DNA of 55,554 nucleotides from Candidatus Peribacteria bacterium (GTDB lineage Bacteria; Patescibacteriota; Gracilibacteria; Peribacterales; Peribacteraceae), in NCBI GenBank assembly GCA_041691135.1, contig JBEPVF010000011.1, forward strand, positions 1 through 55,554, in the 5' to 3' direction. The position numbers and the translations under genes were made by a program. The notes beneath the pieces are model-generated. The model did not search any database. It was not told the origin of the DNA and saw only the letters and a program-made list of their open reading frames with translations. This document shows, piece after piece, positions 1 through 55,554 of this stretch (positions are counted from its first letter, which is position 1; each line of letters starts with the position of its first letter).

Positions 1-77
1 TGGGTCATAGGCGGTGTGCTTCTTTTTGGTTCTTTTTCTTGTCGCGGGGAGACAAGAAAAAGAACACCAGTGGTGAC
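1..77. repeat. 3' end of dispersed structured repeat (copy A, truncated by window edge)
   Basis: TGGGTCATAGGCGGTG.GCTTCTTTTTGGTTCTTTTT(T)CTTGTCGCGGGGAGACAAGAAAAAGAACACC is near-identical to 24430-24497 and to the end of the copy at 55138-55520. Confidence 0.9.
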
Positions 78-5378: not shown

Positions 5379-5745
5379 AGAATTGTTGGAGGAAGAGATA
5401 AAACGGAAGGAATTCTAAGGGCTCCAAGGGCCTACGCAAGTACAAATCCTCTTGAAAATGGCAGTGGACGGCCTTCCTTAGCTACCAGACTGCATTTTCT
5501 GCTGTTGTACTTCTCCGAATTCATGTGGTGGATAGCCGAGTTTTTTGCTTATGAATCAGCATTTTAAGCCATACGTCAATATCTGTTCGGCCAAAGACAA
5601 GCGTCGCAAGACCCGTCTAAATCTCTGGATACATTGAAAATAGAGGGCAGTTCGACTCCGCTCACTGTCATTCGCGTCGGCAAAGAAGTGGCCCAAGCGC
5701 CAGAGTGCGAGGACCATGAGCGAGGCCCCAGAGGGCCGAGACAAA

Positions 5746-5836
5746 TGGCGGAGAGAGAGGGATTCGAACCCTCGATGCCCTTGTGGGGCATACTCGATTT
5801 CGAGTCGAGCGCCTTCGACCACTCGGCCATCTCTCC
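5746..5836 (-). tRNA. tRNA-Ser (anticodon CGA)
   Basis: GGAGAGATGGCCGAGTGG...CTCGA-CT-CGA-AA-TCGAG...long variable arm...GGTTCGAATCCC...TCTCC-G-CCA. Confidence 0.97.
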
Positions 5837-7209: not shown

Positions 7210-7455
7210 AGAGAAGATTATAGCACCCCATCCCTAACCCTTCCCCCGCCACCTCCCTTTCTTTTGTTTGGAATACAGATTCTATACACGCTACAAAATC
7301 TCAGAGACCTGCACGGGGAAGGGAATGTATGTGTTTTGCTCTCTCGTCCTTCCCCGTGTTGGCGTGCGGAAGAGACCGGGGAAGGTGCCCCGCAGGGCGG
7401 ATGGGGTACCGCGCTAGGCAATATTTTCCTCCCCTGTACGACACGTCCAATTTCT

Positions 7456-8853: not shown

Positions 8854-10107
8854 TTAGGTGCCTTCTTTCCAACTCGTCAGATACTTCTGCTGCTCCTTTG
8901 TCAGATCATCAATCGTAATACCCATCGCCTTCAACTGTAATTCAGAAATGAACGTATCGATCTCCGGAGGCAACGTGATTACCGTTGCCTGCAGCTTGCC
9001 TTTGTTCTTCACCAGATATTCACACGCCAACGCCTGGCCACAGAAACTGAGACTCATCACTTCGCTGGGATGGCCTTCGGCGGATGCCAGGTTCACCAGG
9101 CGGCCTTCGCCGGCCAAATAAATAACGCGACCGTTCGGCAGCAAGTATTCATCCAAGTAATGGCGCACGCGACGCTTGGTCTTGGCGTTTCCTTCCAGGG
9201 CATCCAAGTCGATCTCGCAATCGAAGTGTCCGGAGTTCGCCATCACTGCACCGTCCTTCATCTGTTCCATGTGTTCGTAGCGGATCACGTGCAAATTGCC
9301 GGTCACCGTGATGAACAAGTCGCCTTCCTTTACCGCCTGATCCATCGGCAGTACACGATGGCCGTCCATGGCCGCCTGAAGCGCTGCGAACGGTTCGACT
9401 TCGGTCACGATCACTTGGGCGCCCATCCCTTTCGCTCGCAGCGACACGCCTTTGCCACAGCTGCCGTAGCCCAGAACAACAACCGTCTTGCCCGCGATGA
9501 GCAGATTGGTTGAGCGCAGAATGCCGTCGAAGGTGGACTGGCCTGTGCCGTAGTAGTTGTCCATGAGGTGTTTCGTCTTGTTGTCGTTTACGGCGATCAA
9601 CGGAATCTTGAGCACGCCGTCGCGTTCCATCGACTTGAGGCGGATGATGCCGGTCGTCGTTTCCTCGCAACCGCCGATCAGTTTTTTGAGCACGTCCGGA
9701 TACGTCTGGTGGATCTCGGTGATCAGATCGCAACCGTCGTCGATAGTGATATCCGGTCCAGTATCGATGACTGATTTGATGTATCGGTAGTAGTCCTCTT
9801 TCGTCTCGCCCTTGTAGGCCCACACTGTCACATCCTTTTCCTCAGCCAGAGCAGCCGCCACATCGTCCTGCGTGCTGAGTGGATTACAGCCGGTAATGGC
9901 AACCTTCGCACCGCCCGCCACCAGCGTCTTCACCAGCACAGCCGTCTCTTTGGTCACGTGCAACGCCATGCCGATGGTCAGACCGGCAAACGGTTTCTCT
10001 TTGGCAAATCTCTTCTGTACTTCCATTAAAGCACCCATACGGCGCTCGGCAATTTCGATGTTCAGCTTTCCTTGGGCAGCCAGGGAAGGGTCTTTGACAT
10101 GGGACAT
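8854..10107 (-). CDS. ahcY: adenosylhomocysteinase
   Basis: CNPLSTQD, DDGCDL, EETTTG, KHLMDNYYGTGQS, GRLVNL...GHP. Confidence 0.97.
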   Translation of the reverse strand: MSHVKDPSLAAQGKLNIEIAERRMGALMEVQKRFAKEKPFAGLTIGMALHVTKETAVLVKTLVAGGAKVAITGCNPLSTQDDVAAALAEEKDVTVWAYKGETKEDYYRYIKSVIDTGPDITIDDGCDLITEIHQTYPDVLKKLIGGCEETTTGIIRLKSMERDGVLKIPLIAVNDNKTKHLMDNYYGTGQSTFDGILRSTNLLIAGKTVVVLGYGSCGKGVSLRAKGMGAQVIVTEVEPFAALQAAMDGHRVLPMDQAVKEGDLFITVTGNLHVIRYEHMEQMKDGAVMANSGHFDCEIDLDALEGNAKTKRRVRHYLDEYLLPNGRVIYLAGEGRLVNLASAEGHPSEVMSLSFCGQALACEYLVKNKGKLQATVITLPPEIDTFISELQLKAMGITIDDLTKEQQKYLTSWKEGT

Positions 10108-10169: not shown

Positions 10170-10754
10170 ATGGATTTCAGCCAAAACGACCGGCTAACGT
10201 ATTCGGAGGAAACATTCTCCAAACTCAACCTGATCGAAGCTGAGGTACGCGGAAAGGAATTCGACAAGTGCCGTTTCGAGAAATCCAGTTTCCTGCAGTG
10301 TGATTTCCAGGCCTGCCGGTTCATCGACTGCACCTTCAGCGGCTGCATGATCAGCGCCACCAAATTCAAGAGCAGCACCCTCGTCGATACGCTGTTCACC
10401 GACTCAAAAATTATGGGCATCGACTGGACGCGTATAGCCAACGCCCGCGGCTTCCAGTTCACCAAATGCGAACTGCTCAATCTCGGTTTCGGCTTCATGA
10501 AACTGCCGAATATGATTATGACCGACTGCGCGGCGCACGAAGTGGATCTGATGGAAACCGACTGCACGGGCGCCGTCTTTGACGGAACCGATTTTCACAA
10601 AAGTTTATTCCTGCGGACGAATCTGACGAACGCGAGTTTTCGCCGAGCCTACAATTACGCGATTGATTTTCATCACAACACGCTCAAGAACGCCGTCTTC
10701 ACCATGCCGGAAGCGGCAAGTTTACTGCAGTATTTGGAGATCGTTATTGAATGA
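10170..10754 (+). CDS. pentapeptide repeat protein
   Basis: Periodic xxFxx/xxLxx five-residue repeats (CRFEK SSFLQ CDFQA CRFID). Confidence 0.88.
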   Translation: MDFSQNDRLTYSEETFSKLNLIEAEVRGKEFDKCRFEKSSFLQCDFQACRFIDCTFSGCMISATKFKSSTLVDTLFTDSKIMGIDWTRIANARGFQFTKCELLNLGFGFMKLPNMIMTDCAAHEVDLMETDCTGAVFDGTDFHKSLFLRTNLTNASFRRAYNYAIDFHHNTLKNAVFTMPEAASLLQYLEIVIE

Positions 10755-10755
10755 T

Positions 10756-11706
10756 TTACGGCAGTTCCGGCAGCATCTCGCCGTACGTCGTCTCGGCCCG
10801 GCCCAGCACCGCATTGATGTCCAGCGAATCGGTGAGCGTACCGTCGTATTCCACCTCGAACGACGCGACGGATGCACCGAATCGCCCGCACTGTTCCAGC
10901 GTCCAACCGGCGGCAAGCCCGGTAATGAAGCCCGCCCGTAATGCATCGCCCGCGCCCGTCGGATTTATCACCTTCTCCGCTTTGCAGGCCGGGATGACCA
11001 TCGTGCGATCATGACCATAGATGGTCAGACCGTCTTCGCCATGGGTGACGACGACAAAGTCGGTCATCCTGAGAACGTCATCGAAAGAAACATGCGCTTT
11101 GTCCGCCACCTGCGTCCACTCGTACGCATTCACAATGAGCCCGCTGCTGAGGCGAATTGCGCGGATGAGTTCGTCGGGACTGAGTGCGTTGGTCGCCTGA
11201 CCGGGATCGAACAGAAACGGCACGGCGAATTCACTACACCATCGCGCACCTTGCATCATCATCATGACATTGCGCGGACTGATGATGGCATATGCAATAT
11301 CGTCGCGCTGCTGCGACAGGTCGGGCCATTGCCCTTTGGCATCGGCACCGGGATGGAAAAAGCTGATCTGTCGGCTATCGCTGTCGGTCACGATGATCGC
11401 CGTCGCCGTCATGGCATCGGAAAGTTCTTCCACATGGTCCATCGCAATGCCCCGGGATTCCAGCAGCGCCTTGTACTCGCCGCCGTCCGTCCCCACCGTT
11501 GCCACGAGCAGCGGATCCTGGTTGAGCAATTGCAGATGCCATCCGATATTCGCCGCCGTACCGCCGTGGTGCTTCTCGAAGTGCGGCGTCAGGAAATTGA
11601 TCGACAGTTCCTGCAGATTGGTCACGTCGATGCCGTCCAAAAATGAACCGTCATGCGTGAGCAATTGGTCATAGGCAACAGAACCGGTGACGAGAATGCG
11701 TTTCAT
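10756..11706 (-). CDS. PfkB-family nucleoside (adenosine) kinase
   Basis: VTGSVAYD, GGTAANI, DPGQ, PTGAGDALRAG motifs. Confidence 0.88.
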   Translation of the reverse strand: MKRILVTGSVAYDQLLTHDGSFLDGIDVTNLQELSINFLTPHFEKHHGGTAANIGWHLQLLNQDPLLVATVGTDGGEYKALLESRGIAMDHVEELSDAMTATAIIVTDSDSRQISFFHPGADAKGQWPDLSQQRDDIAYAIISPRNVMMMMQGARWCSEFAVPFLFDPGQATNALSPDELIRAIRLSSGLIVNAYEWTQVADKAHVSFDDVLRMTDFVVVTHGEDGLTIYGHDRTMVIPACKAEKVINPTGAGDALRAGFITGLAAGWTLEQCGRFGASVASFEVEYDGTLTDSLDINAVLGRAETTYGEMLPELP

Positions 11707-22932: not shown

Positions 22933-24123
22933 TCATCGGCGGCGCCAGAAAAGCCACGAATGCATCGGCTTCTGCGTCAGCCACAACAAGCCCGTCACAA
23001 GCGCCAGCACATCGGCCACGACGGGAATCAGGAACAGTGAAAAGTCAGGGAAAAATATGCCGCGGTACTGCAGATACAAGTAGACGAACTGGAAGTGTAA
23101 CGAGAAAAGAATGACCGGCAGTAGGCGCTGGTACTTGGCCAACACCGGAATACCGGCCAAGGTGAGCAGCAGCACCGCCGCTTCGAGGTAGAAATGATCC
23201 ATGTGATCGAGCAATGCCGCCAGGATGTAAGCAATGCCAATCGAGAAGGCGATGGCCTGTCCCAACCGACGGTCGCGCCAGAAGGTCGAGAGATACAGCA
23301 ATCCGAAGAGTCCCAAAAACAACAGCAGTGGTGACCCGTGGACCAGATTCCCCGGCCCGGTGAGTGCCGGATCGAGCGGATAGTAGTTGTGGATCGAGAA
23401 GAGCATCTGGAATCCATGCACGACGTTGAGCGGAAACTTCCACCACTGAAACACGTTGGCTTGATCGATCGTCGGATGCACGCCAACGAAGACGCGACCA
23501 ATCTGTAGGTACTCAGCTATGACGTAGATGAGGGGAAATACGAGCGCCAAGCCGAGCTGGCGTGACCCGTTTTTCCACGTCTGCTTGTTCGGATTCCACC
23601 ACAGCAAGAGCGGCAATAGAGCGATGGAAAACGGCTTGATGAGGAACGATATGCCGAGCGGCAGCCACACCCAACCCGATCCTTTGCCGCGCAGTGCAAG
23701 CGTCAGCAATACGCACAGCGTGAAGGATGCGAAGGTGAATCCTCGCAGTGAAATGAAGAAGTAGAATGGCATCATCGCCATGGCATACGTGAATAGCACG
23801 GCTTGAAATTGATCGTTAAGGAACGAACGCGCCGCGAAATATGCGGCTGGAACAAGCGCGATCGCACACAGGACCTGAAACAGAATATTGGCATGCGGAA
23901 AGCCCGTGAGAAGATATAGCGGCACCGCTAAAAACGATGCGCCATGGAAGCCTGGAATCGAGAAGTCGACCCGCCCGTGCGCCAGCGTCTCGATGAACTG
24001 CTGGTATAGCGAATCATCGTCCATTGGCACGATGGTGGAGCGCAGGAAAACAGCCGCCACCGCGAGCGTCAGGACAGTGACGTGAAAGGCTGATGAGAGA
24101 AAAAGGGCGCGAAGGGAGCGCAT
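22933..24123 (-). CDS. polytopic membrane protein, GT-C-like
   Basis: PMDDD acidic first loop, about 10 TM helices, IKP motif. Confidence 0.65.
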   Translation of the reverse strand: MRSLRALFLSSAFHVTVLTLAVAAVFLRSTIVPMDDDSLYQQFIETLAHGRVDFSIPGFHGASFLAVPLYLLTGFPHANILFQVLCAIALVPAAYFAARSFLNDQFQAVLFTYAMAMMPFYFFISLRGFTFASFTLCVLLTLALRGKGSGWVWLPLGISFLIKPFSIALLPLLLWWNPNKQTWKNGSRQLGLALVFPLIYVIAEYLQIGRVFVGVHPTIDQANVFQWWKFPLNVVHGFQMLFSIHNYYPLDPALTGPGNLVHGSPLLLFLGLFGLLYLSTFWRDRRLGQAIAFSIGIAYILAALLDHMDHFYLEAAVLLLTLAGIPVLAKYQRLLPVILFSLHFQFVYLYLQYRGIFFPDFSLFLIPVVADVLALVTGLLWLTQKPMHSWLFWRRR

Positions 24124-24159
24124 GAGCGAAGCATAGCACTAATCCTCGCTTGCGGGCGT

Positions 24160-24497
24160 GCCCTCACCCCAGCCCTCTCCCTCCTTCCCACGCCGCAGGG
24201 AGTTGTGATCGTCTGCTCACTATTGAACATCAGAGACCTGCCGGGAGAGGGAGATGTGTGTTGTGTGTTTTATCCAATGAAGCTCTCTTAACTACTCCCA
24301 GGCGGCTGCAGCCGCCAAACCTCTTCGCATCTTCGCCATTCCAGGGAACAGTCCCTCCGCCTATGTGGTGGGGATAGGTGGTTACGAACTGTGTCACAGC
24401 AAGCCGTTAGGCGCTGTGAGACAGTGAGGTGGGTCATAGGCGGTGCGCTTCTTTTTGGTTCTTTTTCTTGTCGCGGGGAGACAAGAAAAAGAACACC
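24160..24497. repeat. dispersed structured non-coding element (copy B, full length)
   Basis: Colinear with 55138-55511 over its whole length; several stems, one with compensatory changes. Confidence 0.9.
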
Positions 24498-24542
24498 TTG
24501 AGCGATTGGAAAAGTTTGTGCCGGGGAATCACCCGAGCATCC

Positions 24543-24701
24543 GCGGGTAGAAAACCCGCTCCCAATTTTGTCAGTAATCTAATAACAAAAAGACAATCAA
24601 TACCTCAGAACCCGCAGCCGGGGACGGCTGCTGCTACGGATGAGGGTGAAGGGTGAGCATTCGCGGGTCTCCTTCGACTCCGCTCGGGATTACAGACCCG
24701 C
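24543..24701. repeat. cluster of REP-like palindromes
   Basis: Minus strand GGGA-GCGGGT-TTTCT-ACCCGC (24543-24563) and GTAG-CA-GCAGCCG-TCCC-CGGCTGC (24614-24637); GCGGGTCT...AGACCCGC (24663-24701). Confidence 0.65.
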
Positions 24702-24703
24702 TT

Positions 24704-25798
24704 TTACTTTTTGTTCCGAAAGACGAACGTGTGCGAAAAGAAATAATTCACCGGAATCATCACGCCGATTGCGATGACTTTGGACAGGAAGTAATGCAGA
24801 CCGAGGAGCTGTAACCCATCAGAAATGACGCCGTTAAGGAAGATTGCCGGCCCGTAGACCAAGGCAAATTTGAGAATTTGAGCTCCGTAGTTGCGATCGG
24901 TATTGCGGAAGGTGAAGTGCTTGTTGAGGAAGAAGACTGTAATGGAGCCGAACAGACTGGAAACGTACGGCGCAACGTAGGGGCTCACATTCAGCAGGTG
25001 CACCATGATCGGCAACGAACCGAGATCCGCTATGGCACCGATACCGCCACTGACAATGAACTTCAGCGCCTGTTTAACATGCAAATACAACTGCGGCGAA
25101 CGGATACGCAGCACCGAGAAGAACGCCTCGTGGATTTCGTGACTACTAAGATTGGAGATCCCGCGACGACGGTTGACGAAGATCGTCGGGACCTCGCCGA
25201 TTTTGGCACCTTTGCGATGCAGCTGAAATGCCACCTCGGAGAGCACCACATAGCCTTTGGCGTCGATATTATCTATGTCGATCATCTCGAGCGCCTTGCG
25301 CGTGTAAGCACGGAAGCCATTGGTGTAATCGGACATGGGAATGCGTAAAACCAGCCGCGCATACCGATTGGCCCATTTAGAAAAGAAGGTACGTTTCGGT
25401 CCCCATGCGTGAATTTCACTGCCCGGCAAATACCGCGATCCCACCACCATGTCATTGTCTTTGATTTTTTCGAGGAACCTCGTAATCTCCTCGGGTTTAT
25501 GCGAAAAGTCGCTGTCCATCTCGAAGATAATCTCGTAATCGCGCTCCAATGCCCATTTGAATCCAGCGAGCACGGCCGACCCGCGACCACCCTTCCCCTG
25601 ACGCACTATCAAATTCAGTTTCTCCGGATGATGTTCCTGCGCTTTCTTCACCAAATCAGCCGTCCCATCGGGCGACGAATCGTCCACGACCAGCACATCA
25701 ATTGTCGGGTATAACTCAAACAATTTGTCGATCAGTTGCACGATGTTTTCGGCTTCGTTGTAGCACGGGATAACAACGAGCACACGAGAAGCGGCCAT
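24704..25798 (-). CDS. polyprenol-phosphate glycosyltransferase (GT2) fused to GtrA-like domain
   Basis: VIPCYNE, VDDSSPDGT, EMDSDFSH, DYTNGFR; C-terminal FFLNKHFTF GtrA. Confidence 0.9.
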   Translation of the reverse strand: MAASRVLVVIPCYNEAENIVQLIDKLFELYPTIDVLVVDDSSPDGTADLVKKAQEHHPEKLNLIVRQGKGGRGSAVLAGFKWALERDYEIIFEMDSDFSHKPEEITRFLEKIKDNDMVVGSRYLPGSEIHAWGPKRTFFSKWANRYARLVLRIPMSDYTNGFRAYTRKALEMIDIDNIDAKGYVVLSEVAFQLHRKGAKIGEVPTIFVNRRRGISNLSSHEIHEAFFSVLRIRSPQLYLHVKQALKFIVSGGIGAIADLGSLPIMVHLLNVSPYVAPYVSSLFGSITVFFLNKHFTFRNTDRNYGAQILKFALVYGPAIFLNGVISDGLQLLGLHYFLSKVIAIGVMIPVNYFFSHTFVFRNKK

Positions 25799-30422: not shown

Positions 30423-30444
30423 AGAGCGCCGTCTCTCGGCGCGG
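30423..30444 (+). repeat. REP, left of RAYT
   Basis: AGAGCGCCGTCTCTCGGCGCGG. Confidence 0.85.
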
Positions 30445-30498
30445 CAATAGCACAATATCTTCACGTCCCAACGCCATCCGATTCAGAACAATGCAACA

Positions 30499-30903
30499 AT
30501 GCTGATCACAACAAATACAATTGATAGGAGACCAATATTCCAGAATGCAGCAGCTGCTCGCATTGCAATTGAAAAAATGTATACGACACAGCACTTCTAC
30601 CCATTCTTTCTGTACGGCTTTGTAATCATGGAAGATCACTGTCATTTTCTGGTTCGTGTACCAGAGGACGGATCTATTTCAAAAATAATGAACACCTATA
30701 AGCGATATGTAAGCATGGATATTGGACAGCCTGTATGGCAGAAACGTTTCCATATACGTACAGTAAAAGATGCATATAAAGCTTTGGAATATATTCACCA
30801 AAATCCTGTTAAAGCGGGATTATGCGAAATACCAGTCGAGTACCCATGGTCATCGGCATCAGGAAAATGGGATGTTGCTGAGTTGGAATGGTGGCATATG
30901 TGA
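30499..30903 (+). mobile_element. REP-associated tyrosine transposase (RAYT, IS200-like Y1 HUH)
   Basis: FVIMEDHCHFL (HUH), VWQKRF, YIHQNPVKAGL...YPWSS; flanked by inverted REPs; AT-richer than neighbours. Confidence 0.9.
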
Positions 30904-30931
30904 ATTTTGAGAATCAAGAAATCGGGAACCA

Positions 30932-30953
30932 CCGCGCCGTGAGACGGCGCTCT
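30932..30953 (-). repeat. REP, right of RAYT (inverted)
   Basis: Reverse complement AGAGCGCCGTCTCACGGCGCGG, 21/22 identical to the left copy. Confidence 0.85.
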
Positions 30954-55137: not shown

Positions 55138-55520
55138 GCCCTCACCCCGGCCCTCTCCCTCAGCCCGCTGTCGCGCAGGACCCTTGGTCATGCGTTCGTC
55201 ATGGAACACCAGAGACCTGCCGGGAGAGGGAGGTGCGTTGTATTTGTTTTGTGCAATGAAGCTTCATCCACTACACCCAGGCGGCTGCAGCCGCCGAATC
55301 TCTTCGCCTGCTCGCTATTCCAGACAATGACCCCCTCCGCCTATGTGGTGGGGATAGGTGGGTACGAACTTCCTTGTCGCCTGCCCATAGGCGCGACAAG
55401 GAAGTGAGGTGGGTCATAGAGGCGGCCTGTCCGGCGTAGCCCGCAGGCGAAGTCGGATGCGCTTCTTTTTGGTTCTTTTTCTTGTCGCGGGGAGACAATA
55501 AAAAGAACACCAGTGGTGAC
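55138..55520. repeat. dispersed structured non-coding element (copy C, with ~32-nt insertion)
   Basis: Colinear with copy B; shares the 3' tail AGTGGTGAC with copy A. Confidence 0.9.
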
Positions 55521-55554
55521 TGATGCTGTTCGTGTAGGAGAATATTTCAGACAT

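What the first reader, a model, noticed from the sequence alone, without database searches (positions are those of the whole stretch)
24160..24497. Multi-copy ~340-380 nt structured non-coding element with compensatory covariation
Seen: three same-orientation intergenic copies at 1-77 (partial), 24160-24497 and 55138-55520. Conserved blocks alternate with diverged ones, yet pairing is kept. Copy B has ACTGTGTCACAGC-aa-GCC-gtta-GGC-GCTGTGAGACAGT (24388-24425); copy C has ACTTCCTTGTCGC-ct-GCC-cata-GGC-GCGACAAGGAAGT (55368-55405). These have the same length, bulge and loop size; 7 of 13 left-arm positions differ, and 12/13 versus 13/13 pairs form. Other shared stems: CCCTCTCCC...GGGAGAGGG enclosing GCAGG...CCTGC; the palindrome GGCGGCTGCAGCCGCC; CCGCCTATG...CATAGGCGG enclosing the covarying hairpin (interrupted in copy C); and a 15-bp GTTCTTTTTCTTGTC/GACAAGAAAAAGAAC hairpin. 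No credible ORF or terminal inverted repeat is apparent. Inference: selection acts on structure, so this is either an unannotated ncRNA family or a non-autonomous ssDNA/RNA-mobilised element. REP-like hairpins follow copies A and B, and a RAYT lies in the same window. I do not recognise it as a named family.
Basis: partly seen in the sequence, partly recalled or inferred. Interest (0 to 1): 0.85.

Follow-up and report, generated by a model that had tools for sequence, protein, structure and literature searches.

The report
Structured multicopy repeat in Peribacteria genomes
The flagged stretch is real: it is the local form of a folded, many-copy intergenic DNA element found across a whole family of tiny-genome (CPR) bacteria. 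It always points the same way relative to the chromosome's strand asymmetry, matches no catalogued RNA family, and has no known job.

Summary
M1 (24160-24253) is a C-rich stem-loop. M2 (24290-24497) is the part that matters.

- **Copy number:** the 1.74 Mb genome holds 32 M2 loci, 12 of them with a full M1, plus 5 solo M1.
- **Distribution:** a covariance model of M2's 3' domain hits 113 of 151 genomes of the family (62 of 84 genera), with 1 to 35 or more copies each. Outside the family the hits are only weak.
- **Shared plan:** a closing stem P2 whose sequence differs completely between genera; a G-rich core with optional hairpins; a pyrimidine tract that mirrors the next arm; and a pyrimidine/purine hairpin P4.
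- **Structure support:** covariation supports P2, P3 and P4.
- **No known match:** no Rfam match, no conserved ORF, no link to RAYT/IS200 genes.
- **Mobility:** positions are rarely shared between genomes, and two empty orthologous sites exist.
- **Orientation:** the sense strand lies on the C-rich strand at 28 of 32 loci here and 37 of 42 in relatives. tRNA and protein genes show no such bias.

Best reading (0.45): a non-autonomous element that folds as a single strand and whose spread or survival is tied to replication. Main rival: a transcribed RNA with a triple-helix 3' end.

The parts
1..68 (+). Copy A: 3' part of M2, cut by the contig end. It holds the P2 3' strand, the pyrimidine tract, P4 at 29-65, then ACC.
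   Evidence: R1 match at 4-68, 79.4 bits
69..92 (+). Tail module that follows most M2 copies (two sequence variants exist in the genome)
24160..24253 (+). M1: a separate C-rich stem-loop module. The outer stem is 24173-24181 with 24243-24251, and the inner hairpin varies. It occurs alone at 5 loci.
24254..24289 (+). G/T-rich linker between M1 and M2
24290..24497 (+). M2: this genome's version of the family-wide structured element
24301..24316 (+). P1 hairpin: 6-bp GC stem with a variable loop
   Evidence: 96.4% of cells paired; no change on both sides
24357..24365 (+). P2, 5' strand
24366..24387 (+). G-rich unpaired core segment, nearly invariant among copies
24388..24425 (+). P3: hypervariable hairpin with a conserved GCC-loop-GGC tip and a one-sided 2-nt bulge
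   Evidence: 11 of its 16 pairs change on both sides
24426..24434 (+). Second G-rich unpaired core segment, invariant in all 23 aligned copies
24435..24443 (+). P2, 3' strand
24448..24456 (+). Pyrimidine tract Y1, which mirrors the loop-near part of the 5' arm of P4
24458..24494 (+). P4: 15-bp hairpin with a pyrimidine 5' arm, a 7-nt loop and a purine 3' arm
24495..24521 (+). Tail module (second sequence variant)
24538..24563 (+). REP-like hairpin R1 (a neighbouring module, not part of M2)
24610..24637 (+). REP R2. The same repeat flanks the RAYT at G000:C1:268316-268753 on both sides.
24644..24701 (+). A further repeat module (R5), ending 2 nt before the stop codon of the gene at 24704-25798 (-)
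55138..55232 (+). Copy C, M1
55270..55511 (+). Copy C, M2 (P4 at 55472-55508)
55421..55454 (+). Optional inserted GC-rich hairpin just after the P2 3' strand (limits depend on the alignment). It is present in 5 of the 23 aligned copies.

Best explanation
The flagged region is two adjacent repeat modules. M2 is the local variant of a family-wide, non-autonomous repeat that folds as a single strand.

Its plan is a closing stem P2 around a G-rich core, with optional hairpins such as P3. Then come a short GC-rich link and a pyrimidine tract. Last is a pyrimidine/purine hairpin P4 whose 5' arm the tract mirrors.

The element multiplies and turns over within intergenic DNA. Either its insertion or its survival is tied to the direction of replication, because nearly all copies point the same way relative to strand asymmetry.

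In this it behaves like REP/BIME arrays or hairpin-ended IS200/IS605-type elements that act as single-stranded DNA at the fork. It does not behave like an ordinary sRNA gene. The enzyme that recognises it is unknown and is not a Y1 (RAYT/IS200) transposase.

- **Shown:** copy number, distribution, structure, turnover, orientation.
- **Inferred:** single-stranded DNA as the active form, and mobility as the cause of spread.
For: **Copy number and distribution**
- 32 M2 loci in 1.74 Mb.
- Word depth is 820.9 over P4 against 17-20 in the flanks (summed over all contigs of the run).
- The 3' domain model R1 hits 113 of 151 family genomes and 62 of 84 genera, with 1 to 35 or more matches each.

**Structure**
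- P3 and P4 covary within the genus.
- P2 takes at least 12 unrelated sequences across genera. It is a perfect 9/9 in 38 of 59 distinct elements, against a shuffled mean best of 7.1.

**Turnover**
- The orthologous intergenic site in a congener is about 165 bp without M1/M2, against 580 bp here.
- A second empty site measures 119 bp against 530 bp in another genus.
- Flank proteins of the element loci (135 proteins) gave only 2 cross-genome locus pairs that share both flanking genes.

**Orientation**
- All M2 copies on a given contig point the same way.
- The sense strand is on the negative-skew strand at 27 of 32 loci by raw skew, and at 28 of 32 after removing the coding-strand effect.
- In relatives the figure is 37 of 42 loci in 27 genomes.
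- In 5 of 5 near-complete genomes the orientation flips across the interval that holds dnaA. One copy, 9 kb to the right of dnaA, is an exception.
- tRNA genes (18 versus 20, with 12 ambiguous) and protein genes (52.5%) show no such bias.

**Gene context**
- Orientation does not follow the neighbouring genes, and divergent promoter regions are avoided.
Against: - No transposase is linked to the element. 47 of 113 element-bearing genomes have no Y1_Tnp match, and the odds ratio is 0.37.
- No clean ends, target duplication or target motif could be read at the two empty sites. There the whole intergenic text differs.
- Sequence conservation of the 3' domain across 62 genera of streamlined 1.2 Mb genomes is unusual for a selfish repeat and hints at a host function.
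- Wobble-type mismatches favour the sense strand only mildly: G.T 24 versus A.C 10 in P4, and 22 versus 18 in P2.
- By the usual GC-skew rule the sense strand is the leading-strand template, not the lagging-strand template. That is the wrong side for the IS200/IS605 model. The dnaA positions argue the opposite.
- Within-genome likeness could come from gene conversion rather than transposition.
Confidence: 0.45

Rival explanations
1. A transcribed structured RNA. The P2-closed G-rich core binds a conserved protein or RNA. The 3' end is a hairpin whose purine arm is read on its Watson-Crick face by the 5' arm and on its Hoogsteen face by the upstream pyrimidine tract. This U.A-U / C.G-C major-groove triple helix would shield the RNA, or the upstream mRNA, from 3' exonucleases.
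For: - The upstream tract mirrors the hairpin arm, which fits a strand running parallel to the purine arm. Mean longest mirror match is 6.96 against 6.43 +/- 0.09 for shuffled pairings (0 of 500 reach it). The direct-repeat match is not enriched (97 of 500 reach it).
- At least four different positions of the C within the tract switch together.
- The tract joins the arm through a single base. By my recall of H-type pseudoknot geometry, that suits an RNA deep groove better than B-form DNA.
- G.U-type mismatches exceed A.C-type on the sense strand, 46 to 28 over P2 and P4.
- The unpaired G-rich loops are invariant.
- The upstream gene is co-oriented at 17 of 23 loci, and the downstream gene is convergent at 21 of 26 loci.
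- As RNA the sense strand folds 10 kcal/mol better than the antisense strand.
Against: - Orientation tracks strand asymmetry, not the neighbouring genes. By my reading, in tandem gene contexts here 9 copies are antisense and 6 are sense.
- tRNA genes show no replication bias, so selection on expression cannot explain 28 of 32.
- No promoter or terminator lies within the conserved unit, and P4 is not followed by a U tract.
- Both strands fold equally far beyond their shuffles (z -4.66 and -4.70).
- The relatedness of the copies inflates the mirror statistic.
Confidence: 0.3
2. A host cis-acting DNA site with polarity along the replichores. It would be a loading, pausing or orienting signal read by a conserved replication, repair or segregation protein, and it has been copied around the chromosome.
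For: - The orientation is uniform relative to strand asymmetry, and it flips around dnaA in 5 of 5 genomes.
- The element is retained in 113 of 151 small genomes with a conserved 3' domain.
- It does not depend on Y1 transposase genes.
Against: - Copy number ranges from 1 to 35 or more between genera, and 38 of 151 genomes have no match.
- Positions are not conserved, and empty sites exist.
- Known polar signals are short words, not 100-250 nt folded units (recalled).
- The KOPS-like skewed octamers of this genome sit on the opposite strand from the element's G-rich core.
Confidence: 0.12
3. An oversized REP or REPIN mobilised by the RAYTs of this genome.
For: - Three RAYT-like genes and one IS200-type tnpA are present in the genome.
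- REP hairpins directly follow most M2 copies.
- REP R2 shares M2's orientation bias, 10 to 0 with 6 ambiguous. However, many R2 copies are adjacent to M2.
Against: - The RAYTs are flanked by the short REPs R2 or R3, never by M2.
- There is no positive association across 151 genomes (E+Y+ 66, E+Y- 47, E-Y+ 30, E-Y- 8).
- Near-complete genomes with 17-34 copies have no Y1 match.
Confidence: 0.05
4. It encodes a small hydrophobic peptide, like a type I toxin. The peptide would start at the GTG in the link, with the pyrimidine arm read as Phe/Leu/Ser codons and the purine arm as Lys/Glu/Arg codons.
For: In copy B the frame from that GTG gives 20 codons with a hydrophobic run followed by charged residues. 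This is my reading of the sequence.
Against: - The GTG is missing in several variants.
- Copies within one genome differ by 1-2 nt indels in the tracts, so neither the frame nor the length is kept.
- Any pyrimidine/purine hairpin translates this way.
Confidence: 0.02

Closest known systems
REP/BIME mosaics with RAYT (Enterobacteria, Pseudomonas); recalled, not read here
   Same: - Dispersed intergenic hairpin repeats arranged in mosaics with other motifs.
- A preference for 3' ends of genes and for convergent gene pairs.
- Strand-specific folding.
- True REP-RAYT units exist beside M2 in this genome.
   Different: - M2 is 5-10 times longer and has a multi-stem core.
- It is not the repeat that flanks RAYTs.
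- It occurs in many genomes without any Y1 gene.
- Its sequence is conserved across 62 genera.
ERIC/IRU and pneumococcal BOX elements; recalled
   Same: - Repeats of 100-200 nt that are conserved across genera, or modular.
- Strong predicted folding, no transposase of their own, and unknown function.
- Copy number varies widely between genomes.
   Different: - There is no sequence likeness.
- M2 has a pyrimidine/purine hairpin with a mirrored third tract, and a near-uniform orientation relative to strand asymmetry.
- I do not know whether that has been reported for ERIC or BOX elements.
IS200/IS605 ends and their ORF-less derivatives (PATEs); recalled
   Same: - No inverted terminal repeats and no target duplication.
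- Function would depend on hairpins in one DNA strand.
- Orientation is coupled to replication.
   Different: - The two ends are unlike each other.
- No conserved flanking tetranucleotide was found.
- Y1 transposase is often absent.
- Which strand is the lagging-strand template is unresolved here.
Triple-helix RNA 3' ends (MALAT1/PAN ENE) and U.A-U triples of telomerase or SAM-II pseudoknots; recalled
   Same: Two U-rich strands and one A-rich strand, with the third strand parallel to the purines. The mirror covariation fits this arrangement.
   Different: - The connectivity here is tract, then 5' arm, loop and 3' arm. It is not an internal loop clamping a tail.
- No RNA has been shown to exist.
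- No bacterial stand-alone case is known to me.

Membership tests
Any Rfam 15 family | Covariance-model score at or above the family's gathering threshold | tested here: not met
   - Window: only a tRNA at 5749-5836.
- 24100-24720 at E up to 10: best is 21.2 bits against a gathering score of 91.
- 15 relatives' loci: only SSU rRNA.
- L061:1200-1620: best is 23.9 bits against 96.
REP/REPIN-RAYT | The repeat flanks the RAYT gene as inverted copies | tested here: not met
   The RAYTs at window 30499-30903 and at G000:C5:61756-62229 are flanked by R3 hairpins. The RAYT at G000:C1:268316-268753 is flanked by R2 hairpins. None is flanked by M2.
REP/REPIN-RAYT | Co-occurrence of the repeat family with its Y1 gene across genomes | tested here: not met
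   E+Y+ 66, E+Y- 47, E-Y+ 30, E-Y- 8 of 151 genomes; odds ratio 0.37.
MITE | Terminal inverted repeats and a target-site duplication | tested here: not met
   - M1-M2 has unlike ends.
- Two filled-versus-empty comparisons show no duplication and no clean junction.
- A different module (M0) does occur inverted on both sides of some composites.
IS200/IS605-type single-strand element | Orientation coupled to replication, with the folding strand on the lagging-strand template | tested here: inconclusive
   The orientation bias itself is strong. The GC-skew convention puts the sense strand on the leading-strand template, whereas dnaA positions in 5 genomes put it on the lagging-strand template.
IS200/IS605-type single-strand element | A Y1 transposase present to act in trans | tested here: not met
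   No TnpB-type match was found in this genome either (the genome is 92% complete).
Intrinsic terminator | A GC-rich hairpin followed by a U tract | tested here: not met
   P4 is A/U-rich. On the sense strand the pyrimidine tract precedes it, and on the antisense strand a purine tract follows it.
ENE-like RNA triple helix | A third pyrimidine strand parallel to the purine strand, covarying with it | tested here: met
   The mirror match exceeds all 500 shuffled pairings, while the direct match does not. The copies are related, so this is supportive rather than proof.
ENE-like RNA triple helix | Exists as RNA, with the purine tract at or near the 3' end | not testable with these tools
   No run recorded as RNA was available to test this.
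Type I toxin mRNA | A conserved short ORF with a kept start codon and frame | tested here: not met
   The start codon is absent in several variants and the frame is broken by 1-2 nt indels.

The most novel reading that the evidence does not exclude
M2 and its relatives are transcribed, and their 3' domain is a free-standing bacterial RNA triple helix. The pyrimidine tract would lie in the major groove of the pyrimidine/purine hairpin and cap the 3' end of the RNA. That would be a bacterial counterpart of the MALAT1/ENE strategy, carried by a family-wide multicopy element in CPR bacteria.
Probability: 0.2. Interest if true: 0.85.

Novelty: new variant of a known kind. Interest (0 to 1): 0.62.

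Why it matters
CPR bacteria have very small genomes. Even so, 113 of 151 sampled genomes of this family keep up to dozens of copies of one folded element. It is in no RNA catalogue, and my three full-text searches found no paper describing it.

Three features make it more than another REP-like repeat:
- Stems with wholly different sequences keep their pairing across genera.
- A mirrored pyrimidine tract points to a triple helix.
- Its orientation follows chromosome strand asymmetry far more strictly than tRNA or protein genes do.

If the element is mobile, it implies an unknown replication-linked mobilisation route without a Y1 transposase. If it is an RNA, it may be the first stand-alone triple-helix end in bacteria.

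It is also practically useful. It explains many contig breaks in these MAGs and gives a polarity marker for replichores in genomes where GC skew and dnaA disagree.

Tried and rejected
**Known RNA family.** No match.

**Coding peptide.** Rejected: the start codon is not universal and the frame is not kept.

**Intrinsic or bidirectional terminator.** Rejected: there is no U tract after P4 on either strand.

**RAYT dependence.** Rejected.

**TnpB or group II/retron link.**
- No PF07282 match in this 92%-complete genome.
- The one good reverse transcriptase belongs to a DGR-like locus on another contig.

**Public collection scans.**
- (named species genomes): 2 stretches, both in one MAG titled uncultured Candidatus Peribacteria bacterium.
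- (metagenome contigs): 0.
Of the 120 and 119 stretches, I re-scored the 80 viral and 80 metagenome loci that were listed with model R1, and 0 matched. These two scans therefore say nothing.
- (strict 3'-domain pattern, viral contigs): 0.

**Expression.** No RNA holder was listed. The one DNA run shows only short unitigs breaking inside the repeat, plus raised depth.

**Simple triplex by eye and a fixed-register count**. Uninformative, because the register floats. The longest-match test is the one I rely on.

**DnaA boxes near dnaA in G149.** Two boxes lie in one 110-bp spacer, too few to call an origin.

**Literature.** Three full-text searches found no description of such an element. I read passages only of PMC4736985 and PMC7143001. 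Their supplements were not seen and might list repeats.

Full report
**What is there**

Copies B and C align at 81% mean column identity, and C carries a 34-column insertion after the P2 3' strand. Every quoted stem is present at the quoted place.

The window is contig C11 of a 1.74 Mb, 35-contig genome that is 92% complete.

A blastn of copy B against this genome gives 38 pieces at 37 places. Self-comparison shows 30,433 bases repeated three or more times. In the window these lie at 1-136, 5688-5748, 7222-7420, 24143-24667 and 55138-55554.

Many copies sit at contig ends, so the repeat breaks the assembly. In the one DNA run that holds the window, summed word depth reaches 820.9 over P4, against 17-20 in the flanks. 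That run may include other strains.

**It is modular**

Query positions show two units.
- M1 is 24160-24253.
- M2 is 24290-24497, followed by a 24-27 nt tail.
- By my count there are 32 M2 loci. Twelve have a full M1 upstream and two have an internally deleted M1.
- Five loci have M1 alone.

M2-only copies are usually preceded by a tandem 9-mer module that starts at the stop codon of the upstream gene.

Around these lie about ten more repeat modules. They include three REP-like hairpins and a module (M0) that occurs inverted on both sides of some composites. M1 is a stem-loop of its own, with a covarying inner hairpin.

**Structure of M2**

On 23 full copies (22 from this genome and 1 from a congener; alignment A2), RNAalifold finds 57 pairs, 16 of them with changes on both sides.

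With my hand-entered structure (P1, P2, P3, P4):
- 94.8% of cells pair, against 87.0 +/- 0.5 in shuffles.
- 0 of 500 shuffles reach the covariation score.
- Slid partners pair at only 42-55%.

P3 carries most of the signal. It comes in about six discrete versions, and the congener has a wholly different one.

One copy (G000:C2:86435) has three G.T wobbles on the sense strand, which would be A.C mismatches on the other strand. P1 and P2 do not vary within this genome.

Both strands fold far better than their shuffles. The sense strand gives -92.7 kcal/mol (z -4.66) and the antisense strand -82.7 kcal/mol (z -4.70).

**Relatives**

DNA search finds full M2 only in one congener. Other genera match only the last 60 nt or so.

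The only exact matches of the core pattern in named species genomes are in a MAG titled uncultured Candidatus Peribacteria bacterium. The organism is therefore a CPR bacterium of that group.

I built a covariance model (R1) of the 3' domain from 18 copies in 7 genomes.
- It hits 113 of 151 sampled genomes of the family and 62 of 84 genera, with 1 to 35 matches scored per genome.
- In a sample of the class, all 15 family genomes besides the window's own match. Only 24 of 135 genomes of other families match, and those are weak (E 1e-3 to 1.5e-7).
- A variant with a non-pyrimidine P4 that R1 misses also exists, so these counts are lower bounds.

**Common plan**

Reading about 60 distinct elements gives the following order:
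- often an A/C-rich leader and a G-rich word;
- P2 of 9-11 bp;
- a G-rich core of 11-137 nt with optional hairpins;
- the P2 3' strand;
- a short GC-rich link;
- an 8-nt pyrimidine tract;
- a one-base join;
- P4.

P2 takes at least 12 unrelated sequences. It is a perfect 9/9 in 38 of 59 distinct elements and at least 8/9 in 55 of 59. Shuffled upstream sequence gives a mean best of 7.1.

Rfam has nothing for these relatives either.

**The mirrored tract**

The tract upstream of P4 is the mirror image, not a direct copy, of the loop-near part of the 5' arm.
- Mean longest mirror match is 6.96, against 6.43 +/- 0.09 when tracts and arms are re-paired at random. None of 500 re-pairings reaches it.
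- The direct match is 6.84 against 6.73, and 97 of 500 re-pairings reach it.
- The position of the C within the run switches in step in at least four versions.

A mirror means the tract is parallel to the purine arm. That is the geometry of a pyrimidine-motif triple helix on the sense strand. On the antisense strand as DNA, it would be a purine-motif triplex. This is inference: the copies are related, and no physical test was possible.

**Not RNA-gene-like in its placement**

- In this genome the upstream gene is co-oriented at 15 loci and opposite at 12. The downstream gene is convergent at 17 loci and co-oriented at 7 (my reading).
- In relatives the upstream gene is co-oriented at 17 of 23 loci and the downstream gene is convergent at 21 of 26. 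P4 often lies 0-40 nt from that gene's stop codon.
- Divergent promoter regions are nearly avoided.

So the element follows no single transcription unit.

**Orientation**

All M2 copies on a contig point the same way.
- The sense strand lies on the strand with negative GC skew at 27 of 32 loci.
- After averaging the skew of plus-strand and minus-strand genes, to remove coding effects, the figure is 28 of 32.
- In relatives it is 37 of 42 loci in 27 genomes, judged from only about 2.7 kb of flank each.
- In contrast, tRNA genes split 18 to 20, with 12 ambiguous, and 52.5% of protein genes lie on the G-rich strand.
- Solo M1 copies do not share the bias: 4 of 5 lie the other way.

**Which strand is which is unsettled**

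In five near-complete relatives the copies to the left of dnaA are on the minus strand and those to the right are on the plus strand. One copy, 9 kb to the right of dnaA, is an exception, and there are two inverted neighbours. Two readings follow.
- If dnaA marks the origin, the sense strand is the lagging-strand template and the leading strand is C-rich. The 16S gene and the S10 operon of this genome lie on the C-rich strand, co-oriented with M2, which fits. A CPR genome whose rRNA-bearing strand is C-rich is in print (PMC7143001, passages).
- If the usual skew rule holds, dnaA sits at the terminus. The strongly skewed G-rich octamers of this genome (the best is 47 to 5) lie on the G-rich strand, as KOPS-like words do on leading strands. 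PMC4736985 notes that origin and terminus in Peribacteria are not apparent from the genes (passages).

**Turnover**

- The site between the genes at 22933-24123 and 24704-25798 is 580 bp here and is built wholly of repeat modules, antisense to both genes. In a congener it is about 165 bp without M1/M2.
- A second pair in another genus measures 530 bp against 119 bp.
- In neither case is there a clean junction or a duplication, because the whole spacer differs.
- The flank proteins of the element loci (135 proteins) gave 10 cross-genome similar pairs. Only two cross-genome locus pairs share both flanks. One of these is between this genome and its congener, where P3 nevertheless differs completely. 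That points to replacement or conversion within genomes.

**No enzyme found**

This genome has one IS200-type tnpA and three RAYT-like genes. The RAYTs are flanked by short REPs R2 or R3, not by M2.

Across 151 genomes the element and Y1 genes do not go together (66, 47, 30, 8; odds ratio 0.37). No TnpB-type match was found.

**Verdict**

- The best reading is a non-autonomous, single-strand-folding repeat family whose spread or survival is tied to replication (0.45).
- A transcribed RNA with a triple-helix 3' end is the main rival (0.30) and the most novel reading.
- A polar host DNA site comes third (0.12).

Comparisons with REP/BIME, ERIC, BOX, IS200/IS605 and ENE elements rest on recall. 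None of those papers was read here.

Noticed in passing
window 30423-30953: A RAYT-like gene (30499-30903, 134 aa, Y1_Tnp E 4.8e-11) is bracketed by inverted copies of a 21-nt REP hairpin at 30423-30443 and 30933-30953. This is a textbook REP-RAYT unit, distinct from M2.
   Followed up: yes
window 7222-7420: A further repeat mosaic: an M1-like C-rich stem-loop followed by another hairpin module (M4) that recurs about 12 times in the genome in both orientations.
   Followed up: partly
G000:C8:8200-11220 (L053): A DGR-like locus. A repeat of about 120 nt at the 3' end of a gene (near 9100-9230) recurs at 9643-9763 upstream of a 349-aa reverse transcriptase (10171-11220). A DUF2779 protein and an IS200-type tnpA lie next to it.
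   Followed up: partly
G149:C1:616245-617705; G044, G087, G043, G014: In five near-complete relatives dnaA lies where the element's orientation, and with it the sign of GC skew, flips. The polarity is the one that the usual rule assigns to a terminus. Either GC skew is inverted in this family or dnaA sits opposite the origin.
   Followed up: partly
whole genome G000: Strongly strand-skewed G-rich octamers (the best is 47 to 5, 90%) lie on the G-rich strand. They are candidate FtsK-orienting (KOPS-like) words. The element's own G-rich core points the other way.
   Followed up: no
window 24124-24160, and L087:2700-2750: Extended -10-like boxes end about 6 nt before the ATG of the gene at 24123. 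This suggests leaderless transcripts, with the -35 region overlapping the edge of M1.
   Followed up: no
G000 loci; L032, L036, L385: Short tandem 8-9-mers begin at or right after stop codons. In relatives, inverted blocks of such units form long hairpins in otherwise empty spacers. They may be this lineage's terminators.
   Followed up: no
G000:C9:2933-4401: The single 16S gene lies on the C-rich strand, between two M2 copies of the same orientation (C9:8 and C9:13270). In G133, two element copies also lie upstream of the 16S gene on its strand.
   Followed up: no
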